From assembly GCA_009729775.1 (NCBI GenBank), contig GCA_009729775.1_4081.1: a stretch of DNA of 64,000 nt; one strand, 5' to 3'. The DNA is from Escherichia coli. Its GTDB lineage: Bacteria; Pseudomonadota; Gammaproteobacteria; Enterobacterales; Enterobacteriaceae. Both the position numbers and the translations under genes were made by a program. Shown in pieces: positions 32,600-44,382 of this stretch (positions are counted from its first letter, which is position 1; every line of letters starts with the position of its first letter). The notes below the pieces were generated by a model that was not told where the DNA came from, did not search any database, and saw nothing but the letters and a program-made list of their open reading frames with translations.

Positions 32600-32796
32600 T
32601 GTTTCCTCGTGGACAATGTTTTATTTTTCAATGTATCCACATATTTCGTTACCCATGCATCCTGATAGTTAGTTCCCAATGTAATCAAAAGGTATAACTC
32701 CATTCGTTCTACGTGTGAGTCTGTATTATAAATCTTTGTGAAGTTTTTACGTAACAGTGCTTGATATTCTTTTTCGGTTAATTTACGCATTTTCAT
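32596..32796 (-). CDS. family B paralog
   Basis: motif ITLGTNYQDAWV. Confidence 0.7.
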   Translation of the reverse strand: MKMRKLTEKEYQALLRKNFTKIYNTDSHVERMELYLLITLGTNYQDAWVTKYVDTLKNKTLSTRKQ

Positions 32797-32990
32797 AGTT
32801 TACTCGTTACATCTTCAATTAAATACCAAATCCAATCGTTGACATACCTTTCCTGAAAGTTAGTTCCAATGAATAGTGCCATAATTAATTCACGCTTATA
32901 GGCAATACCACGGTCATGGGACTTATACATTATCATAGCCATGTTATTGATAAGTCTTTCGTGGTGTTCTGCTTGAGTTAAAATACGCAT
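32793..32990 (-). CDS. family B paralog (first gene of array)
   Basis: motif LFIGTNFQERYV; start set at internal Met (MRILTQ) with AAGGGAG RBS; the track start at 33020 would lie inside the promoter. Confidence 0.6.
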   Translation of the reverse strand: MRILTQAEHHERLINNMAMIMYKSHDRGIAYKRELIMALFIGTNFQERYVNDWIWYLIEDVTSKL

Positions 32991-33020: not shown

Positions 33021-33048
33021 ATTTTATACGATTTGTATAAAAAGTCAA
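33021..33048 (-). promoter_or_regulatory. sigma70-like promoter for the family B array (TTGACT-16-TAAAAT)
   Basis: read on reverse complement immediately upstream of first family B gene. Confidence 0.45.
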
Positions 33049-33239
33049 TAACATTTTATTCGTAATACCCCTTTATCGAAGTCGCTAAGGTTACCCGCCC
33101 TTTAGCCCCCTACGCATTTTGCCATAGTCCAATCCCTTTTATTTCAAAAAAGTCAAGGGATTACCTATGCATTTTTTTAACGCATAATTTTAAAAACGCC
33201 TTGACTTTTTTCTGAATCAGTACTAGATCCCTTTACGCA

Positions 33240-33449
33240 TTAATCCTTCGTTACGCTAACGATTATCTGTGTATCCCCGTAGTCCTGCCATACTTCCACG
33301 CCATCCGTCGCCCTGGTTAGTCGTGCTGTCATCTGCTTAACAGTCTTAGGCTTTAGTGGAACCTGTTGCAGTACTGTACGCATAGCATCACTGACGTTAT
33401 CATGTACGCCAGCAATAGTACCTAGAACGCTGTATACTGTATAGAACAT
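33240..33449 (-). CDS. hypothetical protein
   Basis: 69 aa ORF. Confidence 0.5.
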   Translation of the reverse strand: MFYTVYSVLGTIAGVHDNVSDAMRTVLQQVPLKPKTVKQMTARLTRATDGVEVWQDYGDTQIIVSVTKD

Positions 33450-33517
33450 ATGTATGCCCTCCTGATATAGTTAAGGCCGCTAGAGAGCGGCCTATGATGT
33501 TTGGTGATGTGTAATGC

Positions 33518-33919
33518 TTATAGTCCTAAGATAGTGCGTGCTTCGTTACGTTCCGTCCATAGCTGCATGATGTGAGCAAGTAAGTCCTTACTAATGTATC
33601 CGGTGTTCATAGCTTCACGGATAGATACATCATAAGCACCGAACCCCGTGCGAACGATACGCACATCATTTAGGTTAGTGTTATAGATACCGCCAAGATC
33701 AACGGCTTCGAATACTGCATCAACTGAATACTCATTGTTACCATCGTTGAAGTTTTCTAGTGCAATAGTATTGGATACCGCCCAACGTTTGCAGTTTCCA
33801 ATGATGCGGCATTGTTCCGGTTGGAGAGTGCCATTACTTACAGCGTACTCCAGTGCATCTTTACCAAAAGTCCGAGCCAGTACTAAAACGTCAGCGAAGG
33901 AAGTGATTGAGAAGGTCAT
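33518..33919 (-). CDS. hypothetical protein
   Basis: start at MTFSITSF with GGAG RBS; track MVLP extension is translation of 5' hairpin. Confidence 0.6.
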   Translation of the reverse strand: MTFSITSFADVLVLARTFGKDALEYAVSNGTLQPEQCRIIGNCKRWAVSNTIALENFNDGNNEYSVDAVFEAVDLGGIYNTNLNDVRIVRTGFGAYDVSIREAMNTGYISKDLLAHIMQLWTERNEARTILGL

Positions 33920-33939
33920 GATAAAACTCCTTAATTTAG

Positions 33940-34010
33940 GAGGGAGAACCATTTCCCCCTCTCTATGTAAAACATTATACTTGATTCTAAGTACTATGCA
34001 AGTACTTTTT
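33940..34010 (-). promoter_or_regulatory. early promoter cassette: TTGCAT-16-TATAAT followed by GC-rich 5' hairpin
   Basis: reverse complement reads TTGCAT..TATAAT then GGGGGAAATGGTTCTCCC stem-loop then RBS. Confidence 0.55.
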
Positions 34011-34335
34011 ACATTTTAATACCTGGATTCAGGTAGCGGTGAGATCCGTATTCTGGATCTGTTTCGGTCCAGTACTGTAAATCTATAGTACCCTTTGCGT
34101 TAATCTTGTCTACTAGCTTATTCATCTTAGTGTAGACTACTTCGCTAGGGATGTAGTGTAATCCTTTATTATAGAAGTAGTGGTTAGCTTCACTATCGTT
34201 TAAGATATAGCGTGCACCGTTTGCGGTTTGTGCAACAATGAAAGAGTATTCTACTTCCCGATCATTACCATCAACAGTAATGCGGTCGAAATTGGTACGG
34301 ATGAAAGCTTTAACGATAGCGATTGAAGTACTCAT
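34009..34335 (-). CDS. hypothetical protein
   Basis: 108 aa ORF. Confidence 0.55.
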   Translation of the reverse strand: MSTSIAIVKAFIRTNFDRITVDGNDREVEYSFIVAQTANGARYILNDSEANHYFYNKGLHYIPSEVVYTKMNKLVDKINAKGTIDLQYWTETDPEYGSHRYLNPGIKM

Positions 34336-34469
34336 GGTGAATCTCCTAACTTTGTGGGCCGTCGCACCATTGCCGCCCTACGAGATACATTATTGCAGTA
34401 CTGATATACTTTGTCAATACTTTTTTTGAAATAGTTTTGAGTACTGGAATTACATCCACCAGCAGATAG

Positions 34470-34590
34470 TTACTCACCGTTATGAACTATCTTACAGATA
34501 CTTCTCTGCACCCTGTGGGCTAGTTTTTGTCTATGCGTATATAATAGCAAAGGGACTGACCGGAGTCAATCCCTTTTTTTATTCTTTTTT
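34470..34590. repeat. repeated intergenic composite element (GCACCCTGTGGGCTAG core and AAGGGACTGACCGGAGTCAATCCCTTTTTT hairpin)
   Basis: near-identical copies at about 36390-36510, 39760-39870, 43790-43920. Confidence 0.6.
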
Positions 34591-34591
34591 G

Positions 34592-34792
34592 TTAGATGAT
34601 TCTCCAATCTTCTACCAGGATTTTAATATACCGTACCAGTGATTCGAGTGATTCCACTTCCCGATAATCGGTAGCCGTTTGCACGGAACAAGTACAGCCG
34701 ATCAAGCCATTGCCAAGCTCTTTGATCTGTACATCGATGCAGTTGGCTTTTGCTTCATTCAGTACTGCAACCAATTCGTTAGCGATTGACAT
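34592..34792 (-). CDS. hypothetical protein
   Basis: 66 aa ORF with upstream promoter cassette. Confidence 0.5.
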   Translation of the reverse strand: MSIANELVAVLNEAKANCIDVQIKELGNGLIGCTCSVQTATDYREVESLESLVRYIKILVEDWRII

Positions 34793-34810
34793 AATGTTTT
34801 ACTCCTAAAG

Positions 34811-34875
34811 GTGCGGGAGAACTATTCCCCCGCTCTATGTAAAACATTATACATTATCTTGTAGTACTGTCAAAT
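34811..34875 (-). promoter_or_regulatory. early promoter cassette (TTGACA-16-TATAAT) and 5' hairpin
   Basis: reverse complement of intergenic region. Confidence 0.55.
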
Positions 34876-34880
34876 AGTTT

Positions 34881-35138
34881 TTATGAGATATCTTCGATAT
34901 AGTCGGCCCATGTCATTTGTTCAGTACTATCGAGTGCACCAGGATTATTTGGATCAAACCATTCGCCATCCCCTAAGTACATTGCAGCGGATACCGCTTT
35001 ATAGCCATTATAGGCGTTATTCCACTGCATAGCACGATAGATATGGCCTTTAATTGGTGTTAGTACTGGTAACGTTTTATGGTCTTCTACGTAGGCTGTA
35101 GCGATTGGATTTACCCGATACGTTTTGAACTGTTCCAT
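34881..35138 (-). CDS. hypothetical protein
   Basis: 85 aa ORF. Confidence 0.5.
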   Translation of the reverse strand: MEQFKTYRVNPIATAYVEDHKTLPVLTPIKGHIYRAMQWNNAYNGYKAVSAAMYLGDGEWFDPNNPGALDSTEQMTWADYIEDIS

Positions 35139-35212
35139 GATGTTTCCCCTTTAGTTAGTAAAGTTAATACAACAGTACTATCACGCATTGTCAATAGTAC
35201 TGAAATAAAACT

Positions 35213-35437
35213 TTAGATTAGATTATTGATGCCGTTGATGGTAGACTCGCTTTCTTCTTTCTCCCATTGGCGGTAATACTTCCATGCTTCATGATAGGTG
35301 GCGATCAGTTCATCTTTTTGATCCTGAGTACATGCCAGTACTGAATCACTGTAAGCGGTGTTATAGATAGAATCAAATGATTTCTTCTCTTCTGCCAGGG
35401 TAGCTACTTCCCGCATCAGTTCATCAAAGTTAGCCAT
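35213..35437 (-). CDS. hypothetical protein
   Basis: start at MANFDELM; track extension covers 5' hairpin. Confidence 0.55.
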   Translation of the reverse strand: MANFDELMREVATLAEEKKSFDSIYNTAYSDSVLACTQDQKDELIATYHEAWKYYRQWEKEESESTINGINNLI

Positions 35438-35454
35438 TTTAGTACTCCTTATTA

Positions 35455-35520
35455 GTGGGGGAGGATATCTCCCCCTATGCAAAACATTATACTTTGTTTT
35501 ACTTACAATGCAAGTACTTT
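35455..35520 (-). promoter_or_regulatory. early promoter cassette (TTGCAT-16-TATAAT) and hairpin GGGGGAG-atat-CCTCCCCC
   Basis: reverse complement of intergenic region. Confidence 0.55.
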
Positions 35521-35712
35521 TTAAATTTTATTTCCGATATAGTCCGGCCTGTTCTTTTCGGTCATACGCTTAAGCATTTTTTGCATATGGCTTATTGCTT
35601 GTAGTGTATCCTCTTCCAGCGATGAATCAAGATAATCAGGATCATTCTTCACCTTACAATGATTATGATAGCGTAGTACTGCCAGTACTTTTTTAACTTC
35701 TTCAACTGTCAT
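35521..35712 (-). CDS. hypothetical protein
   Basis: 63 aa ORF. Confidence 0.45.
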   Translation of the reverse strand: MTVEEVKKVLAVLRYHNHCKVKNDPDYLDSSLEEDTLQAISHMQKMLKRMTEKNRPDYIGNKI

Positions 35713-35981
35713 AATAAGTATTCCACTTCGTTTGCTTTCAGGTTAGTATCAATCATCAGTGGCTTTTTGTAGTCCACAAAACGATTAGTTTTTTCGATAG
35801 CGAAGCCCATATAATCCAGCTTGCTTACCGTGCATTCATTCTTAAAAACTTCTTTCGCTGCATTGATGGCTGATTGCAATGTTAACCGACCATCTAAGTT
35901 AATGTTTCCAAATGATCCACCAGCAGAAGTAGGATTACCGTTCATATCTTTAATGATCATAGTTGCGGAGTAGCTAGACAT
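35709..35981 (-). CDS. hypothetical protein
   Basis: 90 aa ORF. Confidence 0.55.
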   Translation of the reverse strand: MSSYSATMIIKDMNGNPTSAGGSFGNINLDGRLTLQSAINAAKEVFKNECTVSKLDYMGFAIEKTNRFVDYKKPLMIDTNLKANEVEYLL

Positions 35982-36002
35982 AATTTTGTTTCCTTTTAGT
36001 AT

Positions 36003-36062
36003 CGGGGAGAACTATTCTCCCCTTGATGTAAACTATTATACAGTACTGATATACTTTGTCAA
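36003..36062 (-). promoter_or_regulatory. early promoter cassette (TTGACA-16-TATAAT) and hairpin GGGGAGAA-tagt-TCTCCCC
   Basis: reverse complement of intergenic region. Confidence 0.55.
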
Positions 36063-36065
36063 TAC

Positions 36066-36287
36066 TTAATTACGTTTAAAATGATATGTACCTTTATCAT
36101 CCTGTACGCCCCATACTGATTTACCATCAACGCCAGTGAAGCCGGATTGCAATTCAATATGGAAACCATTATTATCAACTACAAAAACTTTTTTATTTTC
36201 ATCCCGATAACATTGATATTCTGAATCAACATTAAAGGCCGCATCATTCAGAAGATTGGAAGCGTAAATGCAAGTCATTGTAGTCAT
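36066..36287 (-). CDS. hypothetical protein
   Basis: start at MTTMTCIY; track MVLP extension is hairpin. Confidence 0.55.
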   Translation of the reverse strand: MTTMTCIYASNLLNDAAFNVDSEYQCYRDENKKVFVVDNNGFHIELQSGFTGVDGKSVWGVQDDKGTYHFKRN

Positions 36288-36389
36288 GATTTTATTCCTT
36301 ATTCTTTGAGGGAGAACCATTTCCCCCTCTCGATATAAAACATTATACTTGATTCTAAGTACAATGCAAGTACTTTTTTAAAAATAGTT

Positions 36390-36510
36390 TTCAGTACTGA
36401 ATACTTATATAATAGATACACTTCCGCACCCTATGGGTCAGTGAGTTATCTCTCAATGAATATATAATAGCAAAGGGACTGACTGGAGTCAATCCCTTTT
36501 TTAATCTTTT
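36390..36510. repeat. repeated intergenic composite element, copy 2
   Basis: as above. Confidence 0.6.
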
Positions 36511-37095
36511 TTATCGTGTTATAGTTATCGCGTTAACATCACGTTTTTTATAGTACTGATTCCAGATATTGCGGGTTAAACCGTAATCAAGTACTTTAAT
36601 CAAGCCGTTGCGATCCTGGCCGATATTCTGTTTTCTGATATCTCTTATCGTTAGTGTGGATAATGTATCATCAACGTGATTGAGAGCATCAGCGAAATGG
36701 TGATGGCGTTCAATAGTGTTACGTTTAATATTGTACTTTAACTCATTACATGCGGTTACGTGCTTTACACTGCCTTTGCTTGCAGTACTCAAACGATCCA
36801 TAACAATAAACAGATTATCAGGATCGCATAAATGCATATGCACCTTGGCAAAGAACTGTTTAAGGTGCGGACGGTCATAATCTAAAAAATTCCATACCTT
36901 ACATTCAGTTTCATTTTGTTCTACACCCGCATCACAATTCGCGACCTTAATCACTAACCGATCATTTAAAGCGAATACAATACGGGAAGAACCCGCACCG
37001 ACGATCTCCAGTCCAGCTAACCGACAAGCTGAAAGGATCTCTTTGTTGGTTTCCATTGCATGAAGTGAACGGATGAATTTAGTATAGTTACGCAT
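36511..37095 (-). CDS. putative protein kinase-like protein
   Basis: Gly-rich loop GAGSSRIV, VIKV lysine, IRDIRKQN (HRD-like), DYG (DFG-like); start at MRNYTKF with GGAG RBS. Confidence 0.45.
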   Translation of the reverse strand: MRNYTKFIRSLHAMETNKEILSACRLAGLEIVGAGSSRIVFALNDRLVIKVANCDAGVEQNETECKVWNFLDYDRPHLKQFFAKVHMHLCDPDNLFIVMDRLSTASKGSVKHVTACNELKYNIKRNTIERHHHFADALNHVDDTLSTLTIRDIRKQNIGQDRNGLIKVLDYGLTRNIWNQYYKKRDVNAITITR

Positions 37096-37126
37096 TGTGT
37101 TGACTCCTTGAGTTAATGAAACTATA

Positions 37127-37369
37127 TTACAGTACTTTACTATCAATGGCAACTACTTTTTTTACTTGAACTGCGTGGAATACTTCACGCGTATTTTTAG
37201 TACTGAATACTTTTGCCGTACCTTGTTCGACCGCAATACGATAGCGACCGTTAACGTCCACCATGTTGATAAAGTCCGGTGTACTGAATGGAGTTACCCG
37301 GCATTTAAGAACGGTTAACAGTTCCACCAGCGTGGTAGTCTCTTTGATACGTTTTTCTAAAGTAATCAT
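37127..37369 (-). CDS. hypothetical protein
   Basis: start at MITLEKRIKE downstream of TTGACA-17-TACTAT. Confidence 0.5.
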   Translation of the reverse strand: MITLEKRIKETTTLVELLTVLKCRVTPFSTPDFINMVDVNGRYRIAVEQGTAKVFSTKNTREVFHAVQVKKVVAIDSKVL

Positions 37370-37426
37370 TTTGTTTTCCCCGTGTTGGTATGCATTCATA
37401 GTACTAAAACATTTGAGTACTGTCAA

Positions 37427-37645
37427 TTAGATAATAGAATATTTCTTTAGTGATAATGCGTCTTCTGTCGGTTGATATTCTACACCGTTCCCGTTATCAA
37501 CCTTAGTGAGTAAACCTTTATCAATGAGTTTTTTGATGGTACGGTTTCCCTGTTGAAAACTAGTGAAGTGTGAATCATTACGAAAGGTATAACCGTGCTT
37601 CACTGCTTCATCAATAGTTTTCTTTTCGATTTTAGATAATTTCAT
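37427..37645 (-). CDS. hypothetical protein
   Basis: 72 aa ORF. Confidence 0.5.
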   Translation of the reverse strand: MKLSKIEKKTIDEAVKHGYTFRNDSHFTSFQQGNRTIKKLIDKGLLTKVDNGNGVEYQPTEDALSLKKYSII

Positions 37646-37703
37646 TTTGTTTCTCTCTCTCTGTGTTGGTATAGATACATAATACTAAAACATTTGAGTA
37701 CTG

Positions 37704-37958
37704 TCAACGTGATATTAGTTTTATTTTTTTATTGTATTGTTGGTGTTCATATAGATTAATTTTTCCAGTACTCTCGATCACTATTCTATTGTTAGTGTCT
37801 ACATCGATAACACGTAGTTTCCCGTTGCTTAACTTCCTAGGCAATAGACTACCATTAATAAACTCATTAGCAAGCTGTACGGCCTTTGTGATGATTCTCT
37901 GTGGTGCTTTATAGTGTACCCGCAAGATATTATCTTTAGATAGTTGTACCTTCATCAT
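37704..37958 (-). CDS. hypothetical protein
   Basis: 84 aa basic ORF. Confidence 0.5.
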   Translation of the reverse strand: MMKVQLSKDNILRVHYKAPQRIITKAVQLANEFINGSLLPRKLSNGKLRVIDVDTNNRIVIESTGKINLYEHQQYNKKIKLISR

Positions 37959-37973
37959 TTTAGTTTATCCTAT

Positions 37974-37998
37974 AAAAAAGGCGGGAACTGAACCCGCC
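37974..37998 (-). terminator. rho-independent terminator
   Basis: GGCGGG-aactgaa-CCCGCC hairpin followed by U-tract on minus strand, after stop of 38022..38426. Confidence 0.55.
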
Positions 37999-38021
37999 GT
38001 GTTGTTAGTACTGCAAAGTTA

Positions 38022-38417
38022 TTAGATAACCTGGCGGCGTTTACTGTATACTGTTACACGGTTTCCTTTACGGTCATGACGGATCTCTTTCTGGTTACGA
38101 ATCAGTTCACTTGGACGCTTAAGGTTTGCCAGGTGATCCGCGTGAGTCCATGCATTACTATTCACTTGTACTTGAATATCAGAACCTTCCAAGAAGTCAT
38201 CTTGAGCGTTCAGTACTTCAGCCAGTTCTTGAGCTTTCTTCAGTTCTGCTTCAGTAAGTACTGGTTCAGGTGAATTCACAATATCAGAGATCTCTTTGAA
38301 CTGTACCGCCCAGCGTTGTCCTTTCGGTGCATCTTTGCCCATGTCTTTAAATGTTTCACCTTCTTCACGGGCAACGATGCGAGCTTGTTCACGGGTAGCG
38401 AAGAATTTAGTAATCAT
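38022..38417 (-). CDS. hypothetical protein, paralog of 50213..50479
   Basis: shared FATREQARIVAREEGETFKDMG and HDRKGNRVTVYS segments. Confidence 0.6.
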   Translation of the reverse strand: MITKFFATREQARIVAREEGETFKDMGKDAPKGQRWAVQFKEISDIVNSPEPVLTEAELKKAQELAEVLNAQDDFLEGSDIQVQVNSNAWTHADHLANLKRPSELIRNQKEIRHDRKGNRVTVYSKRRQVI

Positions 38418-38516
38418 GGTGTACATCCTATTAGTTAAGTTAATTAGTACTACAAGTTAGAGTCTATTATAAAGTACTATCTGGGTAATGTCAAATAGTA
38501 CTTTAAATGGATTCTA

Positions 38517-38840
38517 TTACATGTCTTTCTTACGTTTTACATCGTAGTAACGAACTGTAATTTCTTTGTTGATCTCTTCCTCAATTCTGTGTAGTACTTT
38601 CTCTTTCGGGTTGAAACCTATTACAGTTTCTTTAATGATCTCCAAGCCCGTGTATTCGCCTTGTGTACCGTAACCGTAAGTAAAGGTTTCATGTCCCAGG
38701 TCTTCCCAGCGGTCACCAATCAATGCAGACACGTAGCATGAGTGGTAAGTATTGCCGTGGCTATCAGTCCACCGATTAACTTTAATGTCAAAGGAAGTTA
38801 CAATTTTCATTTCTACTTTCTGGGTAAGGATCATAGCCAT
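38517..38840 (-). CDS. hypothetical protein, paralog of 45141..45485
   Basis: shared GNTY, YGYG and C-terminal VKRKKD motifs. Confidence 0.6.
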   Translation of the reverse strand: MAMILTQKVEMKIVTSFDIKVNRWTDSHGNTYHSCYVSALIGDRWEDLGHETFTYGYGTQGEYTGLEIIKETVIGFNPKEKVLHRIEEEINKEITVRYYDVKRKKDM

Positions 38841-38861
38841 TTTAATTTCTCTCTTTTAGTT

Positions 38862-38927
38862 AGGAGGGGAACCATTCCCCTGCCTTGATGTAAACTATTA
38901 TACAGTACTAAGATACTTTGTCAATAC
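38862..38927 (-). promoter_or_regulatory. early promoter cassette (TTGACA..TATAAT) and 5' hairpin
   Basis: reverse complement of intergenic region. Confidence 0.5.
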
Positions 38928-39129
38928 TTATTTGTTTTCTTTTCGTAATTTCTTTTCAGCTTCAACTACATTCTTATTTGTGCAAACTACTTCATCGGAT
39001 AAATCTAACTTCCATCCAGACAGGGGTTTGGTTTGTTTCTTTGCTGCTTTGTTCGCTTTCATGATGTTTCCTTTTTAATTAAGATGTAAACTATTATACA
39101 GTACTAAGATACTTTGTCAATCTATTTTA

Positions 39130-39330
39130 TTAGATAGTTTCCCATTTCATGTTACCCGCTTTACGCTGTGAAACAGGAATAAACATGTTATTAATGTTAC
39201 TAATATAACCGACCTGTAAGTCACGCTGTGAACCATATGCCCGACTTGCTGCATTTTTAGCACCGCGTTCTGATTTATAAACGCCGCTGGATACTGTAAA
39301 GCCTACTACACCGAAAGTAAAATGTTTCAT
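39130..39330 (-). CDS. hypothetical protein
   Basis: 66 aa ORF; two tandem promoters upstream. Confidence 0.5.
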   Translation of the reverse strand: MKHFTFGVVGFTVSSGVYKSERGAKNAASRAYGSQRDLQVGYISNINNMFIPVSQRKAGNMKWETI

Positions 39331-39524
39331 TTTGTATTCCTCTTTGTGGTTGATGTAAGTATTATACTCGTTTACTTTCTATTGTCAATCTTTTTTATCA
39401 GGGGAGTTTTTCGTATGTCTTACTCCTGGACTACTTAACGGGGTTACTTGTTTCGTTCCCCGTCCTGATGTAAAACATTATACTTGATTCTAAGTACAAT
39501 GCAAGTACTTTTTAAAAATAGTTT

Positions 39525-39689
39525 TCACTTACTCATATTAACAGGCTTAAACGGTGGCAATGTAAGATCATGCGGGGTTAAACTGTCATGCTTTGCCCAC
39601 ATACCAGAATCCCTACGGAATAATACCTTATTGTTTTTTATACGATAAAAGTTACCATTATCAGTGTTTTTATACCATACCATTTTCAT
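39525..39689 (-). CDS. hypothetical small protein (not in ORF track, below 60 aa)
   Basis: 54 aa ORF MKMVWYKNTDNG... with TTGCAA-16-TATAAT and GGAG RBS upstream. Confidence 0.4.
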   Translation of the reverse strand: MKMVWYKNTDNGNFYRIKNNKVLFRRDSGMWAKHDSLTPHDLTLPPFKPVNMSK

Positions 39690-39759
39690 TTACTCCTGGT
39701 TATGTCGTTATTAAACATTATACGGGGTTATAGATAGTTTGCAATTAGTTTTTCAGTAC

Positions 39760-39870
39760 TAGCCACCAGCATATAATAGATACATTTATGCACCCTGTGG
39801 GCTGATTTGTTTCTATGCGTATATAATAGCAAAGGGACTGACCGGAGTCAATCCCTTTTTTAATTCTTTT
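39760..39870. repeat. repeated intergenic composite element, copy 3
   Basis: as above. Confidence 0.6.
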
Positions 39871-40019
39871 TAAACTTGTTTTGGGTTGCGATATGTGATA
39901 GCGTTCGGGTACATTTGTTTAATGTTATTCCATGCCTGGTTAACATTGTAACCACTTGAGCGAATCAGTTGGTTACTACCGACACCTTGAAACACTACTT
40001 CGAATAAGAATTCTTTCAT
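39870..40019 (-). CDS. hypothetical small protein (below track cutoff)
   Basis: about 49 aa ORF MKEFLFEVVFQG...; ATGA overlap with upstream ORF. Confidence 0.3.
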   Translation of the reverse strand: MKEFLFEVVFQGVGSNQLIRSSGYNVNQAWNNIKQMYPNAITYRNPKQV

Positions 40020-40189
40020 GCTTTCACCTCGCGATCTGCTTTACCTTTACGCCACGCTGTTGCTAATTGTTCGCGTTGCCATAAGTCGAGTGATACGTAA
40101 AGTTTTGCATTATCACCCTTCGGATACTCGCCAGTAGTACCAATCCGATAAAACAGATCTTTCAGTACTGATAATTCCACCTGGATCAT
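40016..40189 (-). CDS. hypothetical small protein (below track cutoff)
   Basis: about 57 aa ORF MIQVELSVLKDL... Confidence 0.3.
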   Translation of the reverse strand: MIQVELSVLKDLFYRIGTTGEYPKGDNAKLYVSLDLWQREQLATAWRKGKADREVKA

Positions 40190-40297
40190 TGTATTACTCC
40201 TGATTGTGTTAGTACTTCTACGATGGCATGAATGATCATAAGTACAGCTAACACAACAATCATCGGATTCATTTGCATAAGCTGTACTCCTTATATA

Positions 40298-40510
40298 TTA
40301 ATCTTTCAGCCAATGATCTTGAATGAATTTTTCACAGAATCCCTGTTTCATAGATTCTAACAGGCGTTCACGGTGAGCGGCGGCATATTGCTCAGTACTA
40401 TGCGTTACGCCAGGTTGATAACGTGAAACACCGTCTGGTCCGATATATTGAACATCCCACGGTTTTTCGTTAGTATCAGACCATTTACGAACGATTAGTT
40501 GACCTTGCAT
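40298..40510 (-). CDS. hypothetical protein
   Basis: 70 aa ORF with promoter cassette and AGAGGA RBS. Confidence 0.55.
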   Translation of the reverse strand: MQGQLIVRKWSDTNEKPWDVQYIGPDGVSRYQPGVTHSTEQYAAAHRERLLESMKQGFCEKFIQDHWLKD

Positions 40511-40527
40511 GTTTCTTTCCTCTTAGT

Positions 40528-40587
40528 GGGGAGAATCATTTCTCCCCTTCATGTAACTTATTATACAGTACTAGATTACATTGTCAA
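40528..40587 (-). promoter_or_regulatory. early promoter cassette (TTGACA-16-TATAAT) and hairpin GGGGAGAA-tcat-TTCTCCCC
   Basis: -35 at 40582-40587, -10 at 40560-40565, hairpin 40528-40547 (coordinates on plus strand). Confidence 0.6.
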
Positions 40588-40593
40588 TAGTTT

Positions 40594-40917
40594 TTATTCA
40601 CCTTGTTTGAATATAGTTTTCTCCATTGATTCCATGATTGCAACCAATACAGCATGGATCTCACTTAACGCGGCATCACTAAAAGCATTAATGAATAGGC
40701 AATCATTCTCGCGAATATTTTTAATGTACTTATCAGCAGTGGTTGCGAATTCATTCAACGGCAGATCAAATGCTTTATCCCATAATGGATGGCGTAACTG
40801 TAACAGTACTGGATTATCACGGTCACCAGGTGAGAAAGTGCCTGTAATGAAACATACACCAGGGATACTTTCGAATTGACAACGAACTTCTTTTGTGATA
40901 GTAGTATGAATATACAT
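40594..40917 (-). CDS. hypothetical protein
   Basis: 107 aa ORF. Confidence 0.55.
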   Translation of the reverse strand: MYIHTTITKEVRCQFESIPGVCFITGTFSPGDRDNPVLLQLRHPLWDKAFDLPLNEFATTADKYIKNIRENDCLFINAFSDAALSEIHAVLVAIMESMEKTIFKQGE

Positions 40918-40944
40918 TTATTTTTATCCTCTATTAAATTAATA

Positions 40945-41133
40945 TTACAGTTTATGAATCAATTCTTTATCCAAGCGATAGCGAACATTATTGATTGTAA
41001 CTGCATTGTTTTTAATGCTACGCTGTACAGGTCCACCAGCAATAACAAACGTTGCCTTATTGCCCCGAACGATGATAGCACTTCCAGGATTACCGAAATC
41101 ATCTTGTACTAAAATGCTTGATAAGTTTTGCAT
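40945..41133 (-). CDS. hypothetical protein
   Basis: 62 aa ORF. Confidence 0.45.
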   Translation of the reverse strand: MQNLSSILVQDDFGNPGSAIIVRGNKATFVIAGGPVQRSIKNNAVTINNVRYRLDKELIHKL

Positions 41134-41149
41134 TTGTCTTTCCTTGTAG

Positions 41150-41208
41150 TGGGGAGAACTATTCTCCCCTTCATGTAAACAATTATACAGTACTGAAAAC
41201 TAATTGCA
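41150..41208 (-). promoter_or_regulatory. early promoter cassette (TTGCAA..TATAAT) and hairpin
   Basis: reverse complement of intergenic region. Confidence 0.5.
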
Positions 41209-41212
41209 AGTA

Positions 41213-41569
41213 CTATGATAAAATCATTATAGGATATTCACTATCAATCAGTACTTCAAAACCAAAACTTTCATACCATTCTTTAAGATTAAATGAGTTA
41301 TCTTCTCCCGTATCGCATTCTAAGATGATACAATCTGAATCATCGGCCGCATCAATAAAGGCATTCATTAATTCAGTACCTTCACCGTTACCGCGATTAT
41401 CGGGATCAACATAAAGAGAATCAATAAACGCTACACGATCATAATCAAGATCTGGTGCAACAATGCCACGTTTAACAAACCAGTACTGCAATTGTGCTAC
41501 TTTGCCTTGTACTTGATAGCCAGTGATCTCACCATTGTCTGTAGTACGCGTGATATGTTGTATACCCAT
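41213..41569 (-). CDS. possible GNAT-like acetyltransferase (weak)
   Basis: segment VAFIDSLYVDPDNRGNGEGTELMNAFIDAA resembles GNAT acetyl-CoA binding motif. Confidence 0.35.
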   Translation of the reverse strand: MGIQHITRTTDNGEITGYQVQGKVAQLQYWFVKRGIVAPDLDYDRVAFIDSLYVDPDNRGNGEGTELMNAFIDAADDSDCIILECDTGEDNSFNLKEWYESFGFEVLIDSEYPIMILS

Positions 41570-41632
41570 GATTTCAATCCTCAGTTAAGATATAAAATAT
41601 TATACACTAACTAACAGTACTGTCAATACTTT

Positions 41633-41890
41633 TTATCTCATAGATCTATGCCAACAATTACGCGGTTGACGTTTAAAAATACTATCATGATCCTCCTGGC
41701 AAGTTATGCAGTACTTACATCCCTTAACGGCCTGGCGACGTTTCTCAGGGATTATATCACCGCAGTCGAGGCAATGTATCAGTGATTCTATTTGTGCGTT
41801 AATTTGCGTTCTAGCGTGGTTAACAGCGGCCTGAATCACTGCGTTAATCTCGTCTTGCTCGGCCCCATCTTTCGTGAATCCTACAGCCAT
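41633..41890 (-). CDS. TraR/DksA-family C4 zinc-finger protein
   Basis: CLDC-x17-CITCQ (C-x2-C-x17-C-x2-C) signature in 85 aa protein. Confidence 0.6.
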   Translation of the reverse strand: MAVGFTKDGAEQDEINAVIQAAVNHARTQINAQIESLIHCLDCGDIIPEKRRQAVKGCKYCITCQEDHDSIFKRQPRNCWHRSMR

Positions 41891-42119
41891 TATTTTAACC
41901 TCATTATAAAAATACTATAGTACTGTAATGCGACAATAATATTACTTGTTCTTACTTTTTCCAATCCACATGATACAACATATTCATCCCCATATGTTCG
42001 AAACGAAACACCATGAAAATTTTTATACACTTGCACTTCTAATCATAACCTTTTGTCTAACCAACTGCGTAGAATTATACTACTTTACGCAAATTGATCA
42101 AGTATTGATCAGATCATTT

Positions 42120-42200
42120 TTTGATCAATATTATACAGTTACATTTGTGCACCCTATGGGTTAGTGCCTTGTGTCCGGCTTATGTACTTATTATACAGTA
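42120..42200. repeat. variant element with GCACCCTATGGG core and CCGGCTT hairpin
   Basis: similar to 50110-50200. Confidence 0.4.
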
Positions 42201-42221
42201 CTTGATGATATTGTCAATAGT

Positions 42222-42419
42222 TTATTTTAATTTTTTTCTGTCATTGATTAATGCTTTCAGTACTATACTAATAACTTGCAATGATTCATCAATGACTATA
42301 AAATTATTTTCTTTCATTAGATGATAGTTACCATTGATTGTATATTCTAATGAGTACTGTTTACGTTTAATTTTTGATAATGTATCAATTTGTTTTTGTA
42401 CTGATTTCATGCTAATCAT
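42222..42419 (-). CDS. hypothetical protein
   Basis: 65 aa ORF. Confidence 0.45.
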   Translation of the reverse strand: MISMKSVQKQIDTLSKIKRKQYSLEYTINGNYHLMKENNFIVIDESLQVISIVLKALINDRKKLK

Positions 42420-42526
42420 TGTTAAACGTCCTGTAATGCATTCTAACGAGATAAACGGTTTAGTACTGGCATTGTATAGGGTAAATGATTAAAGCCCACC
42501 AGCGTTAACCAGTGGGCTATAATCTT

Positions 42527-42670
42527 ACATCTTGCGGATAATCTTAACAGTATCTTTCACCGATTTACCGTCTTGCTGACATTGTTCGATCATCGCGTAT
42601 TGTTCTGCGGTCAGATCCTCGCCAGTTTTTGCCAGTACTGCGTCGATGAATGAATCCAGTGCGATCATTT
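42527..42670 (-). CDS. hypothetical small protein (below track cutoff)
   Basis: 47 aa ORF MIALDSFIDAVLAK... Confidence 0.3.
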
Positions 42671-42767
42671 TATTTCTCTCTTAGGTTAAGTTAACTACTG
42701 TTGATAAAAGTTATTATACAGTACTATCAAACATTGTCAATAGATTTAATAGTACTGGTAATATATT

Positions 42768-42947
42768 TTAGCGGTAATCGTCGTATGCTTTATTAACCTG
42801 GCGAATGTAACTTTCAAAGGCTTCGTCTACCGTTTCATACTCCCGAACATAATCACCATAGGAAACTACATACATCCCTTTTTGATCTTCAAACGTCATG
42901 ATGATAGAATCCAGTCCGATGATTTCAGTTTTTGCGATAATAGCCAT
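42768..42947 (-). CDS. hypothetical protein
   Basis: start at MAIIAKTEI; repeated promoter cassette upstream. Confidence 0.5.
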   Translation of the reverse strand: MAIIAKTEIIGLDSIIMTFEDQKGMYVVSYGDYVREYETVDEAFESYIRQVNKAYDDYR

Positions 42948-43038
42948 TTTAGTATTCCTTAAATTAATATGCGTTGTCTTGATAAAAGTTATTATGCCAG
43001 TACTATCAAACGTTGTCAATAGTACTGTGATAATATTT

Positions 43039-43251
43039 TTAGTTAATGATAGTCAGTGTAAAATTGTAATCCCCTGCCTGGTATAGTACTTTATCGCCGA
43101 ACGTGCCAACACGTTTCATATTGCAATAGATACCCATAACATTTTTTACATCTTTGATATTCCGAACGCCAGTGATATCCTTGTTGAAATTTTCATGATC
43201 AGAAAATAAAACTTGTTTTGCATTTTTCAGTACAGTGCAGATATTAGCCAT
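43039..43251 (-). CDS. hypothetical protein
   Basis: 70 aa ORF. Confidence 0.5.
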   Translation of the reverse strand: MANICTVLKNAKQVLFSDHENFNKDITGVRNIKDVKNVMGIYCNMKRVGTFGDKVLYQAGDYNFTLTIIN

Positions 43252-43270
43252 TTCGATTTCTCTCTGTTAG

Positions 43271-43338
43271 TAGGGAAGTACTGTTACTTCCCGTGCCTTG
43301 ATGTAAACTATTATACAGTACTATAATCTATTGTCAAA
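43271..43338 (-). promoter_or_regulatory. early promoter cassette (TTGACA-16-TATAAT) and hairpin GGGAAGTA-acag-TACTTCCC
   Basis: reverse complement of intergenic region. Confidence 0.5.
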
Positions 43339-43351
43339 CTATTTTTTAATA

Positions 43352-43693
43352 TTATTCAAAATCTTCTGGACCGGACTGATAATCATCCTCACCGTATGCA
43401 CTTTCTAACTTCTCGCCAGTGTAATCATCAGTTAGTGAGTCATCCTCATAGTTCACGTCTACGCCCGTGATGTAAAACTGGCTATCGTCTGGATCATTGA
43501 AATTAATTTTCTGAATGTTTACAATAACTGTATTGATACCCAGGACACAGCCATCAGCCGTTACAAAGTACTGATATTTTTCACATCCACCACTATTGAA
43601 ACCGTAATTGATTTCGGCCCGACCATCATTTAAACGCAGTGCCTGAGCGATGATTTCGTTTTCAAAGTTAGATTGAGCAATTGCAATAGTCAT
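43352..43693 (-). CDS. hypothetical acidic protein
   Basis: 113 aa ORF. Confidence 0.55.
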   Translation of the reverse strand: MTIAIAQSNFENEIIAQALRLNDGRAEINYGFNSGGCEKYQYFVTADGCVLGINTVIVNIQKINFNDPDDSQFYITGVDVNYEDDSLTDDYTGEKLESAYGEDDYQSGPEDFE

Positions 43694-43789
43694 GATTCGT
43701 TTCCTTATTACCAGGGGAAACCGTTTCCCCTTGCGATGTAAAACATTATACGCCTATTGATATAGTTTGCAAGTACTTTTTATCAAATA

Positions 43790-43920
43790 CTTTAAAATAG
43801 TTTTCAGTACTCAATCATTATACAATAGATACACTTATGCACCCTGTGGGCTAGTGAGCTATCTCTCAATGAATACATAATAGCAAAATGGCTGACCGAA
43901 GTCAACCACTTTTTTTCATT
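43790..43920. repeat. repeated intergenic composite element, copy 4 (more diverged hairpin)
   Basis: as above. Confidence 0.5.
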
Positions 43921-44054
43921 TATTTTTAGCTTTTAGAATCGCCGCCTTTCGCGTCATGCCTTGCTTGATGTACTCCTTTACTTTCGCTTTACGTGCTTTC
44001 GCTTTATCTGCTTTCGTTTTAGGAGTACTGTAAATTAAACCGTTAGGATTCATT
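43917..44054 (-). CDS. hypothetical small basic protein (below track cutoff)
   Basis: 45 aa Lys-rich ORF MNPNGLIYSTPKTKADKAKARKAK... Confidence 0.3.
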
Positions 44055-44139
44055 TAAATCACCATAAAGAATAGATAGGTTACTAACAATGCCGCCAGTA
44101 CTGCACCGACCAGGGCCGAACTATAGTAAGCTAATGATT

Positions 44140-44292
44140 TCATTTTTTAGCCTGAAAGTAATGTTTAATTTGTGCGGCGGTCAGTGCACAATTACGCAGG
44201 AAGTTTTCTGTATAACTTTTACGAGTACTGAAAGAGTACTGACCTTTCCCGTTACCGATAGTAACATCAAACCGAGCGTTATATTGTTTCAT
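44140..44292 (-). CDS. hypothetical small protein
   Basis: start at MKQYNARFD; track MVLP extension is hairpin. Confidence 0.45.
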   Translation of the reverse strand: MKQYNARFDVTIGNGKGQYSFSTRKSYTENFLRNCALTAAQIKHYFQAKK

Positions 44293-44309
44293 TTTGTTTC
44301 TCCTAGTAT

Positions 44310-44382
44310 CGGGGAGAACCATTCCCCCCCTCTATGTAAACAATTATACAGTACTGAAAACTAATTGCAAGTACTTTCTAAG
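44310..44382 (-). promoter_or_regulatory. early promoter cassette (TTGCAA..TATAAT) and 5' hairpin
   Basis: reverse complement of intergenic region. Confidence 0.5.

What the first reader, a model, noticed from the sequence alone, without database searches (positions are those of the whole stretch)
33060..33240. Long inverted repeat and short direct repeats upstream of the family B promoter
The arms AAAAAAGTCAAGG and CCTTGACTTTTTT are separated by about 45 bp at roughly 33140-33215, and CTACGCATTTT / CTATGCATTTTT / CTTTACGCATTA recur nearby. This could be an operator or terminator controlling entry into the 24-gene array.
Basis: seen in the sequence. Interest (0 to 1): 0.4.

Follow-up and report, generated by a model that had tools for sequence, protein, structure and literature searches.

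The report
Hairpin beside a jumbo-phage chromosome end
The inverted repeat is real, but it sits 59-124 bp from the physical end of a jumbo phage chromosome (the edge of its 20-kb terminal repeat), inside an end signal shared by several phage genera, where it most likely forms a transcript-ending hairpin.

Summary

The window is an Asteriusvirus (121Q/G17-like jumbo coliphage). The 249-nt gap holding the repeat contains the inner boundary of the 19.8-kb direct terminal repeat (DTR, 33088-52911). Published termini of G17, vB_Ec-M-J, fEgEco12 and Sharanji all map to 33087|33088.

From the cut inwards lies a ~90-nt block: CT|TAGC, 33 nt, GGACTATG, ~17 nt, TTGACTTTT. Its sequence and spacing are kept in at least six jumbo-phage lineages (Asteriusvirus, fENko-Kae01 group, Eneladusvirus, CBB, Kaldavass, XbC2). 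One arm of the repeat is the block's TTGACTTTT element. The other arm is a lineage-specific inverted copy.

On the sense (minus) strand the two arms close a 74-nt stem-loop (-23.6 kcal/mol, z = -5.1) followed by a U run, just after the last DTR gene and before the σ70-type promoter of the small-gene array.

My best reading is a terminator-like 3' hairpin built on the DTR end signal. A DNA-level role in packaging is the main rival. Long DTRs are already published for this genus, but I found no description of the end block. Interest is moderate.

The parts
33088..52911 (.). Direct terminal repeat (DTR), 19,824 bp, present once in this collapsed assembly. It carries small early-type genes on the minus strand with σ70-type promoters.
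   Evidence: The G17 record starts at AGGTTACCC (= 33088) and ends at ...CTGCCTACT (= 52911). vB_Ec-M-J has the same ends. The fEgEco12 DTR of 20,993 bp and the Sharanji DTR of 20,668 bp map to the same nucleotides.
33081..33095 (.). Inner DTR cut site: plus strand GTCGCTA|AGGTTACC, sense strand ...GGTAACCT|TAGCGAC, cut between 33087 and 33088.
   Evidence: This is a conserved island in all Asteriusvirus lineages while the flanks outside it differ. The same CT|TAGC cut is seen in fENko-Kae01 (PhageTerm), CBB (annotated repeat ends at 22456) and at the Kaldavass record end.
33088..33178 (-). Conserved DTR end block. In sense orientation: AAAATGCATAGGTAATCCC-TTGACTTTT, 16 nt, GATTGGACTATG, 33 nt, CT|.
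   Evidence: It is the only stretch detectable by blastn between genera (79-88% identity), and its spacing to the cut is fixed.
33123..33134 (-). GATTGGACTATG. The GGACTATG core is invariant in the seven sequences of alignment A3; CBB has GCACTATG and Kaldavass AGACTATG. It sits 33 nt from CT|TAGC.
   Evidence: Alignment A3. GGACTATG occurs only twice in the window, which is chance level, so it is not a general promoter motif.
33146..33158 (.). Inverted-repeat arm 1 (plus strand AAAAAAGTCAAGG; sense strand CCTTGACTTTTTT). It is the 3' arm of the sense hairpin and the TTGACTTTT element of the end block.
   Evidence: It is kept in Kae01, Kaldavass and BF (as TTAACTTTT) and lost in CBB and JNE01.
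33199..33211 (.). Inverted-repeat arm 2 (plus strand CCTTGACTTTTTT; sense strand AAAAAAGTCAAGG). It is the 5' arm of the sense hairpin and a lineage-specific inverted copy of the motif.
   Evidence: It is not positionally conserved: Kae01 has AAGTCAAG about 20 nt closer, BF and CBB have the reverse complement CTTGACTT there, and JNE01 has lost it.
33143..33216 (-). The full sense-strand stem-loop. Outer stem 33209-33216/33143-33150, a 2-nt bulge, main stem 33199-33206/33151-33158, inner stem 33179-33187/33165-33173, loop 33174-33178. A U run (33150-33146) follows the main stem.
   Evidence: -23.6 kcal/mol, z = -5.1 on the minus strand, against -17.5 and z = -3.9 on the plus strand. RNAalifold finds 23 pairs, none broken, one compensatory.
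33110..33120 (+). Direct repeat copy 1, CTACGCATTTT (sense AAAATGCGTAG).
   Evidence: It is conserved in all Asteriusvirus lineages but not beyond the genus.
33165..33176 (+). Direct repeat copy 2, CTATGCATTTTT. It forms the inner stem with AACGCATAA at 33179-33187.
33231..33242 (+). Direct repeat copy 3, CTTTACGCATTA. It overlaps the TAA stop (33242-33240) of the last DTR gene.
33021..33048 (-). σ70-type promoter of the small-gene array: TTGACT, 16 nt, TAAAAT. It is the third TTGACTTTTT copy and lies 40 nt outside the DTR.
   Evidence: It is conserved in 8 of 9 lineages and deleted in Salmonella phage SD-15.
33240..33449 (-). Last gene of the DTR (69 aa, hypothetical protein).
32793..32990 (-). 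First gene of the paralogous array. The true ATG is at 32990 and the Shine-Dalgarno sequence AAGGGAG is at 33002-32996.
52892..52918 (.). The other DTR boundary: GGCAGACTTCCTCTGCCTACT|TAGTGGC. The bottom strand reads GCCACTA|AGTAGGC.
   Evidence: It is a conserved island in alignment A1.

Best explanation
The flagged stretch is the non-coding tail of the phage's 19.8-kb direct terminal repeat. The virion chromosome ends at 33088. The roughly 90 bp inside the cut form a conserved end block: CT|TAGC, 33 nt, GGACTATG, ~17 nt, TTGACTTTT. I infer that this block positions the packaging enzyme's cut.

The inverted repeat consists of the block's TTGACTTTT element (33146-33158) plus a lineage-specific inverted copy 40 bp further in (33199-33211). 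In the minus-strand transcript of the last DTR gene, the two arms close a 74-nt extended stem-loop, and a U run follows the main stem.

I commit to this mechanism: the stem-loop acts in RNA as a terminator-like 3' hairpin. It ends or stabilises the last early DTR transcript just before the cut signal, the chromosome end and the array promoter. In the internal DTR copy it damps read-through into the array. In the terminal copy it leaves run-off transcripts with a protective 3' hairpin.

Shown: the repeat, the DTR boundary by homology to mapped termini, the cross-genus block, and the strand-biased fold. Inferred: that the block is the cut signal (about 0.6) and that the hairpin acts on transcripts (about 0.4).
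For: DTR boundary:
- The G17 and vB_Ec-M-J record ends map to 33088 and 52911. The fEgEco12 DTR of 20,993 bp (PhageTerm plus restriction digests) and the Sharanji DTR of 20,668 bp map to the same nucleotides.

End block:
- It has the same order and spacing in Kae01, BF/pEa, CBB and Kaldavass. Independently determined ends fall at CT|TAGC.

Hairpin:
- It starts 24 nt after the stop codon and lies before the next promoter.
- The sense strand folds better than the antisense strand in all three Asteriusvirus lineages: -23.6 vs -17.5, -21.2 vs -19.7, and -26.4 vs -18.6 kcal/mol.
- In seven main-clade sequences there are 23 pairs, none broken. One pair is compensatory (G·U to U-A) and one is one-sided (G·U to A-U). 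Three G·U pairs only work on the sense strand. The remaining substitutions fall in unpaired columns.
- Stable hairpins with different 5' partners also occur at the same place in BF (z = -4.3) and Kaldavass (z = -4.1), where TTGACTTTTCT or TTAACTTTTCT follows as a U-rich tail, and in JNE01 (z = -3.2).
- The relative PA5oct uses host RNA polymerase, transcribes its DTR genes early and has factor-independent terminators.
Against: - The stem encloses 40 nt, so it is not a textbook terminator. The tool's terminator scan did not flag it. The ARNold-based G17 annotation marks another hairpin nearby but not this one.
- Kae01 (z = +0.7) and CBB (z = -0.75) have no stable hairpin here, and the JNE01 hairpin has no U tail.
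- The Salmonella SD phages lack the array promoter, which implies read-through.
- The arm sequence TTGACTTTT is conserved as sequence, and in BF the partner motif is flipped to direct orientation. That pattern fits a protein-binding site better than a stem.
- I found no transcript data for this genus.
- The DTR ends of this particular phage are inferred by homology, not from its own reads.
Confidence: 0.42

Rival explanations
1. The repeat acts in DNA as part of the packaging or end signal. The two arms, and perhaps the promoter's -35 as a third copy, are binding sites for the terminase small subunit or an end-binding, portal or neck protein. That protein works with GGACTATG to place the cut 59 bp away. 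On this view the RNA hairpin is incidental.
For: TTGACTTTT keeps a fixed 16-17 nt distance to GATTGGACTATG and 33 nt more to the cut across genera. Extra copies of the motif occur in every lineage but in varying position and orientation: inverted in the window, Kae01 and Kaldavass, direct in BF and CBB. That is typical of binding-site clusters. All three exact TTGACTTTTT copies in 64 kb flank the cut. The arm centres are 53 bp apart, about five helical turns. In phage 812 the last ~85 bp of the right LTR end lie in the neck and tail channel.
Against: JNE01/Turkey5 and CBB have lost the motif but keep G(G/C)ACTATG and the cut site. The other DTR boundary has no such motif. The substitution pattern in the main clade preserves pairing, including G·U pairs specific to the sense strand.
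Confidence: 0.27
2. The repeat is an operator or a promoter-type element controlling the array. The arms would be -35-like sites that bind or trap host RNA polymerase or a repressor, or weak divergent promoters.
For: Each arm contains TTGACT, identical over 10 nt to the -35 region of the real array promoter 108 bp away.
Against: Neither arm has an acceptable -10 at 16-18 nt (ATTGGA and TAGATC). The arms lie 98-163 bp from the promoter's -35. They are replaced in JNE01/Turkey5 although the promoter is kept, and kept in the SD phages although the promoter is deleted.
Confidence: 0.07
3. The repeat forms a single-stranded DNA hairpin used in end formation or DNA entry. It could act as a snap-back or structural element on the strand displaced while the 20-kb DTR is duplicated (as in the T7 hairpin model), or as a T5-like injection-stop structure at the inner end of the repeat.
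For: The DNA fold has z = -3.6. The repeat lies within 124 bp of the cut. The boundary sites read RCTA| in inverted orientation at both DTR ends in four lineages, which fits nicks on opposite strands followed by strand displacement. From my own knowledge, the long T5 repeat also ends in a non-coding region full of inverted and direct repeats.
Against: The distance of the hairpin from the cut varies (centre +91 in the window, +57 in JNE01), and the hairpin is absent in Kae01 and CBB. A 40-nt spacer disfavours cruciform extrusion. There is no evidence of two-step injection in these phages.
Confidence: 0.09
4. The repeat has no function of its own. It is a by-product of local duplication and inversion of the TTGACTTTT motif in an AT-rich spacer.
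For: Motif copies turn over between lineages. There is an inversion of the loop piece between JNE01 and Kae01 and an 81-nt tandem duplication in Turkey5. Ten percent of shuffled windows contain some 13-nt inverted repeat.
Against: The arms are unchanged in most of the ~30 main-clade records at 90-98% identity, with one compensatory change. Complementarity to the conserved block has arisen independently in BF, Kaldavass and JNE01.
Confidence: 0.15

Closest known systems
Long direct terminal repeats of RaK2-like jumbo phages (G17, fEgEco12, vB_Ec-M-J, BF17, Sharanji, fENko-Kae01, CBB, PA5oct)
   Same: The same genome architecture: a repeat of about 20 kb (39 kb in PA5oct) full of small early genes read by host RNA polymerase. 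The published termini coincide with 33088 and 52911.
   Different: The papers report only the existence and length of the repeat. None that I could read describes the boundary sequences, the conserved end block or the hairpin.
Rho-independent (bidirectional) transcription terminator
   Same: An A tract, a stem containing G+C, then a U tract. It lies right after a stop codon and before the next promoter, and folds better on the sense strand.
   Different: The stem encloses 40 nt that form a second stem, rather than a 3-8 nt loop. Neither the scan used here nor the ARNold annotation of G17 called it. The U tail is missing in JNE01. The SD phages imply read-through.
T7/T3 concatemer-junction processing signals (own knowledge: Chung, Nardone & Hinkle 1990; Fujisawa & Morita 1997)
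   Same: Sequence-specific cuts at both edges of a direct terminal repeat that must be duplicated during packaging, with an inverted repeat or hairpin near one edge.
   Different: The T7 repeat is 160 bp and this one is 19.8 kb. There is no sequence similarity. The T7 hairpin lies outside the repeat and this one lies inside. The T7 mechanism involves the phage's own RNA polymerase.
T5 long terminal repeat and its injection-stop region (own knowledge: Heusterspreute et al. 1987; Davison 2015)
   Same: A repeat of about 10 kb carrying pre-early genes read by host polymerase. Its inner end is a non-coding stretch rich in inverted and direct repeats.
   Different: Two-step DNA transfer has not been reported for these myoviruses. 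There is no sequence similarity, and the stretch here is only about 150 bp.
Twort-like Staphylococcus phages K and 812: LTR with early genes, with the right LTR end held in the neck and tail channel
   Same: The LTR genes are the earliest transcribed. The last ~85 bp of the right LTR end sit in the channel and are unusually rich in G tracts for an AT-rich genome. The last 45 bp here (GCGTAGGGGGCTAAAGGGCGGGTAACCT) are also rich in G tracts.
   Different: Different phage family, no sequence similarity, and no structural data for Asteriusvirus. The G tracts are absent from Kae01, BF and CBB.

Membership tests
Boundary of a direct terminal repeat (physical chromosome end) | Coincides with experimentally or read-mapped termini in close relatives | tested here: met
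   The G17 and vB_Ec-M-J record ends, the fEgEco12 DTR of 20,993 bp and the Sharanji DTR of 20,668 bp all map to 33087|33088 and 52911|52912.
Boundary of a direct terminal repeat (physical chromosome end) | Two-fold read coverage and read-start pile-ups in this phage's own sequencing data | not testable with these tools
   No reads are available. The window holds a single collapsed copy of the repeat.
Boundary of a direct terminal repeat (physical chromosome end) | The cut-site sequence is conserved while the flanks diverge | tested here: met
   The islands GCTA|AGGTTACCC and TGCCTACT|TAGTG are invariant in alignments A2 and A1. CT|TAGC is kept across genera.
Terminase recognition (pac/cos-type) signal | Conserved motifs at a fixed distance from the cut | tested here: met
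   G(G/C)ACTATG lies 32-33 nt from CT|TAGC in the window, JNE01, Kae01, BF, pEa, CBB and Kaldavass. TTGACTTTT lies 16-17 nt further in, in four of them.
Terminase recognition (pac/cos-type) signal | Bound and cut by the phage terminase | not testable with these tools
   This needs footprinting and an in vitro cleavage assay.
Rho-independent terminator | Compact G+C-rich stem with a 3-8 nt loop | tested here: not met
   The arms enclose 40 nt. The structure is an extended hairpin of 8+8+3+9 pairs with internal loops. The scan did not report it.
Rho-independent terminator | A U tract directly 3' of the stem on the transcribed strand | tested here: inconclusive
   The window has UUUUUGAAAU after the main stem and TH47 has UUUAUGAAU. 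JNE01 has GGGGGGGCUAG. BF and Kaldavass have UUrACUUUUCU.
Rho-independent terminator | Sits downstream of a stop codon in sense orientation, before the next transcription unit | tested here: met
   The stop codon is at 33242-33240, the hairpin at 33216-33143 and the next promoter at 33048-33021.
Rho-independent terminator | Transcript 3' ends map to the U tract | not testable with these tools
   I found no RNA data for Asteriusvirus in the paper library.
σ70-type promoter (for each arm) | -35 and -10 hexamers 16-18 nt apart | tested here: not met
   Both arms have TTGACT, but the -10 positions read ATTGGA (minus strand) and TAGATC (plus strand). Neither arm was reported as a promoter.
Operator of the array promoter | Dyad-symmetric site overlapping or adjacent to the promoter it controls | tested here: not met
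   The arms are 98-163 bp from the -35 and 40 bp apart. The arms and the promoter are lost independently in different lineages.
Known structured RNA family (Rfam) or tRNA | Match at or above the family's gathering score | tested here: not met
   The only hit is bglG-cis-reg at 28.4 bits against a gathering score of 80. There are no tRNAs.

The most novel reading that the evidence does not exclude
The end block and the inverted RCTA| sites at both DTR edges are the cis-acting signals for making a 20-kb terminal repeat. The terminase would nick the top strand at 33087/8 and the bottom strand at 52911/2. The 3'-OH ends would then prime strand-displacement synthesis that duplicates the whole repeat. 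The hairpin next to the cut would be a working part of this machinery, as a folded single-strand element or a paired protein site, rather than a transcription signal. RCTA| is GCTA| at seven of the eight sites and ACTA| at one; the eight sites come from the window, Kae01, BF and CBB. This would be the first sequence-level model of DTR formation in RaK2-like jumbo phages.
Probability: 0.2. Interest if true: 0.6.

Novelty: new member of a known kind. Interest (0 to 1): 0.38.

Why it matters
Long terminal repeats are reported for many jumbo phages only as a length from PhageTerm. How the ends are chosen and how 20 kb of DNA is duplicated at each packaging event is unknown.

This region shows that the inner end of the repeat carries a short, spacing-conserved signal shared by at least six lineages infecting Escherichia, Klebsiella/Salmonella, Serratia/Erwinia/Yersinia, Pectobacterium and Xanthomonas. 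It also shows that the two ends are cut at inverted RCTA sites.

That has three uses:
- It lets one orient and trim the many unoriented genome records of this group (121Q, PBECO4, JNE01, the SD phages and others).
- It gives a concrete model that can be tested by mutation.
- It explains why a transcript-ending hairpin and a fresh promoter sit back to back here: the internal copy of the repeat continues into the array, while the terminal copy simply ends.

For the original question, the array is not gated by an operator.

Tried and rejected
- **Rfam and tRNA scans of the gap.** Only a sub-threshold bglG-cis-reg hit (28.4 bits against a gathering score of 80) and no tRNA. Rejected as chance.
- **Reading the arms as promoters.** Neither arm has a -10.
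- **A 6-codon ORF on the plus strand (MHFFNA) after AAGGGA.** It is not conserved in JNE01 and I consider it implausible.
- **The 23-nt complementarity between 33155-33177 and the ribosome-binding site and start of the first array gene (32980-33002).** It could occlude the ribosome-binding site in read-through transcripts. The same logic is absent in Kae01, so I treat it as coincidence between two sequences that both resemble a ribosome-binding site.
- **A mirror-image end block at the other DTR boundary.** None was found. Only the RCTA| core is shared.
- **IMG/VR scan with GATTGGACTATG-N-CCTTAG.** It returned 121Q plus two unrelated chance hits.
- **CCCTTT(A/T) repeats flanking the cut.** They are not conserved in JNE01/Turkey5.
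- **The second 13-nt inverted repeat (52229/52290).** It is a by-product of the ubiquitous CAGTACTG palindrome.
- **Kinship between the last DTR gene and the array family.** No similarity.
- **The short direct repeats as an 11-mer family.** Not above chance. Only the ACGCAT core clusters, and it is specific to the genus.

Full report
**The observation**

The flagged inverted repeat exists exactly as described. AAAAAAGTCAAGG lies at 33146-33158 and CCTTGACTTTTTT at 33199-33211, with 13 of 13 bases complementary. The spacer is 40 nt, not about 45.

A perfect inverted repeat of this size with a 3-60 nt spacer occurs twice in the window, against 0.13 expected from dinucleotide shuffles. The 10-mer TTGACTTTTT occurs three times in 64 kb. 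All three copies lie within 172 nt here: the two arms and the -35 of the downstream promoter.

The three short direct repeats are at 33110-33120, 33165-33176 and 33231-33242. As an 11-mer family they are not above chance. Their core ACGCAT is locally clustered: three copies in 153 nt, which is unique in the window. Two of the copies are simply parts of nested dyad symmetry.

**Context**

All genes here are on the minus strand. The repeat lies in a 249-nt gap between gene 33240..33449 and gene 32793..32990. The true start of the second gene is the ATG at 32990, preceded by AAGGGAG, which matches the G17 annotation. A good σ70-type promoter sits in the same gap: TTGACT 33048-33043, 16 nt, TAAAAT 33026-33021. 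It drives a tandem array of paralogous ~70-aa genes.

The window is an Asteriusvirus jumbo coliphage, 97% identical to 121Q over this stretch.

**The key finding: this is a chromosome end**

- In vB_Ec-M-J the annotated "Direct Terminal Repeats" feature (1..21525) ends inside this gap.
- The G17 record begins with AGGTTACCCGCC, which is window 33088. Both G17 and vB_Ec-M-J have ...CTCTGCCTACT at the other end, which is window 52911.
- The fEgEco12 repeat of 20,993 bp was found by PhageTerm and checked by restriction digests (PMC13070987). The Sharanji repeat is 20,668 bp (PMC11895373). Both map arithmetically to the same two nucleotides.
- BF17 (~20.5 kb) and G17 ("about 20 kb", from coverage) agree.

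The window therefore contains one collapsed copy of a 19,824-bp direct terminal repeat, 33088-52911. The inverted repeat lies 59-124 bp inside its inner edge. The array promoter lies 40 bp outside it.

**Conservation within the genus**

Alignment of nine lineages shows invariant islands at these places:
- the cut (TCGAAGTCGCTA|AGGTTACCC);
- CCCCNACGCAT;
- CATAGTCCAATCC;
- CAGTACTAAATCCTTTTACGCATTAATC.

Sequence outside the repeat diverges within 13-19 nt of the cut. The block containing the inverted repeat is kept in the main clade, but JNE01 and Turkey5 have a different sequence there. That sequence has its own inverted repeat of 12 nt with a 41-nt spacer, ACGCATAAAAAC/GTTTTTTTGCGT.

The Salmonella SD phages have lost the array promoter. 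The other boundary is likewise a conserved island (TGCCTACT|TAGTG) within a 1.85-kb non-coding region.

**Conservation across genera**

Klebsiella phage fENko-Kae01 has a 19,736-bp repeat by PhageTerm (PMC11218385) and shows the same layout at its inner boundary. After the stop codon comes AAGTCAAG, then about 21 nt, GTTGACTTTT, 17 nt, GATTGGACTATG, 33 nt, CT|TAGC, and about 27 nt further a TTGACA/TATACT promoter.

Using that boundary and then the Serratia BF boundary as queries, the only DNA conserved between genera is roughly 100 nt ending at the cut. It is present in six Erwinia pEa phages, Serratia BF, Yersinia fHe-Yen9-03 and -04, Xanthomonas XbC2, Pectobacterium CBB and Erwinia Kaldavass.

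The annotated repeat of CBB ends at ...GCCAGTAACGCT|TAGCGAGG. The Kaldavass record physically ends at ...GCCAGTAATGCT. Several independently determined ends therefore confirm the cut at CT|TAGC, 32-33 nt from G(G/C)ACTATG. The spacing holds even where the intervening sequence differs. GGACTATG occurs at chance frequency elsewhere in the window, so it is not a general promoter motif.

**Both edges are cut at inverted sites**

Reading from outside into the repeat on the strand whose 5' end starts the repeat, the boundary sites are:

| Lineage | Inner edge | Outer edge (start of repeat) |
|---|---|---|
| Window | AAGTCGCTA\|AGG | ATGCCACTA\|AGT |
| Kae01 | GGGTGGCTA\|AGG | CTTCCGCTA\|TAT |
| BF | GGGGTGCTA\|AGC (by homology) | CTGCCGCTA\|TAT (the record starts there) |
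| CBB | CTCGCTA\|AGC | maps to the same GCTA\|TATC junction |

A shared RCTA| in inverted orientation is what staggered nicks on opposite strands would leave, with strand-displacement synthesis then duplicating the repeat. The motif is short and the lineages are related, so I treat this as suggestive (roughly p = 0.01), not proven.

**What the inverted repeat is within this frame**

Arm 33146-33158 (sense strand CCTTGACTTTTTT) is the TTGACTTTT element of the conserved block. It is kept in Kae01 and Kaldavass, and as TTAACTTTT in BF. It is lost in CBB and JNE01.

Arm 33199-33211 lies outside the conserved block and is not positionally conserved. Kae01 has an inverted copy about 20 nt closer. 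Kaldavass has both an inverted copy and an extra direct copy. BF and CBB carry the exact reverse complement (CTTGACTT) at the Kae01 position, which makes a direct repeat there.

**Folding**

- On the minus (sense) strand the window forms a 74-nt extended hairpin, 33216-33143: -23.6 kcal/mol, z = -5.1. The plus strand gives -17.5 and z = -3.9. The TH47 and JNE01 lineages show the same strand bias.
- RNAalifold on seven main-clade sequences gives 23 pairs, none broken. One pair is compensatory (G·U to U-A, 4 versus 3 sequences) and one is a one-sided change (G·U to A-U). Three G·U pairs exist only on the sense strand.
- BF (z = -4.3) and Kaldavass (z = -4.1) also have strong hairpins at this place. 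Their 3' halves are the conserved block, and their 5' halves are unrelated lineage-specific sequence. The TTGACTTTTCT or TTAACTTTTCT element follows as a U-rich tail.
- Kae01 (z = +0.7) and CBB (z = -0.75) have no stable hairpin.

**Interpretation**

Two things are superimposed. The first is a DNA-level end signal that defines the repeat boundary. I am confident that this is the boundary (about 0.9). I am fairly confident that the spacing-conserved block is the cut-positioning signal (about 0.6).

The second is a hairpin that several lineages have built, with different partners, onto the inner part of that block. Its position is after a stop codon and before a promoter. It folds preferentially on the sense strand, the substitutions preserve pairing, and a U run follows.

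I therefore favour a terminator-like or 3'-stabilising RNA hairpin for the last early transcript of the repeat (about 0.4). The main rival, at about 0.27, is that the arms are paired protein sites of the packaging or end machinery. That view is supported by conservation of the sequence itself and by the orientation flip in BF.

Arguments against a strong terminator:
- the stem encloses 40 nt;
- neither the scan here nor the ARNold-based G17 annotation calls it;
- the hairpin is absent from two lineages;
- JNE01 has no U tail;
- the promoterless SD phages must read through it.

The operator idea is not supported.

**Comparison with what is known**

Long repeats are already published for this genus and its relatives, and in PA5oct the repeat genes are early and read by host polymerase. 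None of the papers I could read describes the boundary sequences.

The nearest mechanistic parallels are:
- T7/T3 concatemer processing, and the inner end of the T5 repeat with its many repeats (both from my own knowledge);
- Twort-like phages, where the repeat genes are the earliest transcribed and the last ~85 bp of the right repeat end sit in the neck and tail channel and are rich in G tracts. The last 45 bp here are rich in G tracts too.

**Verdict**

The finding is real and non-random, but the inverted repeat is an ordinary kind of element in an interesting place. I file it as a new member of known kinds: a repeat-end signal plus a transcript-end hairpin. Interest is moderate, driven by the cross-genus end block and the inverted cut sites rather than by the repeat itself.

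Noticed in passing
whole window; e.g. 33219-33224, 52923-52930: The palindrome AGTACT (mostly cAGTACTg) occurs 253 times in 64 kb. CAGTACT gives 239 strand hits against 7.7 expected. It lies inside genes and between them, at 6.4 per kb in the DTR. It is completely absent from 28931-33218 (the small-gene array) and from about 20-26 kb. It is also dense in the Kae01 and BF loci. I found nothing on it in the paper library. A palindromic hexamer this over-represented in a phage is unexplained.
   Followed up: partly
window 29920-32990 (minus strand): A tandem array of overlapping genes of about 70 aa starts 40 nt outside the DTR. Of the 14 ORFs examined, 13 are mutually similar and share an LGTNYQE-like motif. 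The array has no AGTACT sites, which suggests a different origin or different constraints from the surrounding genome.
   Followed up: partly
window 34549-34576, 36472-36499, 39831-39858 (minus strand): There are three copies of a compact module, AAAGGGATTGACTCCnGTCAGTCCCTTT followed by GCTATTATAT. It is a 12-bp hairpin (with one U·G pair on the sense strand) that contains a TTGACT -35 and is followed by an extended -10. It looks like an overlapping terminator and promoter. The G17 record annotates one copy as an ARNold terminator.
   Followed up: partly
window 51315-53164: A 1.85-kb non-coding region spans the other DTR boundary (52911|52912). It contains TGATTAC repeats phased at 10 bp on both sides of the cut (52824, 52834, 52992, 53014, 53024), many TTCAGTACTGAA palindromes, a variable number of CAGTACTG copies just outside the cut in relatives, and the window's only other 13-nt perfect inverted repeat (52229/52290). 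It is a candidate packaging-initiation or replication-origin region.
   Followed up: partly
L011 (Salmonella phage SD-15_S21), equivalent to window ~33003-33068: The Salmonella SD phages have a deletion that removes the array promoter and the ribosome-binding-site region. This leaves the first array gene about 20 nt from the DTR boundary, so it can only be expressed by read-through from the internal DTR copy.
   Followed up: partly
L009 (Turkey5) 570-709; L010 (JNE01) 530-560 versus L022 (Kae01): Turkey5 carries an 81-nt tandem duplication of the segment between the hairpin and the stop codon. In JNE01 the loop piece CCAATACCTTA, flanked by CTAAAC/GTTTAG, is inverted relative to Kae01, as if the hairpin loop had flipped.
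   Followed up: no
window 32980-33002 versus 33155-33177: There is 23-nt complementarity (83%) between the hairpin loop region inside the DTR and the ribosome-binding site and start codon of the first array gene outside it. It would pair only in read-through transcripts. It is not conserved in Kae01, so it is probably coincidence.
   Followed up: partly
window 33088-33115: The last ~30 bp of the chromosome end are rich in G tracts (sense strand GCGTAGGGGGCTAAAGGGCGGGTAACCT) in a genome of 35% G+C. JNE01 has G7 and G4 runs. Kae01, BF and CBB do not have this feature. It recalls the G tracts at the right LTR end of Staphylococcus phage 812, which lie in the tail channel.
   Followed up: no
public records 121Q, PBECO4, phAPEC6, JNE01, SD phages and others: Many Asteriusvirus records are deposited without the second DTR copy and with arbitrary start points. 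The CT|TAGC and RCTA| junctions found here would allow them to be re-oriented. The literature already flags the 8.3-kb repeat reported for UE-S1 as probably mis-assigned (PMC13070987).
   Followed up: no
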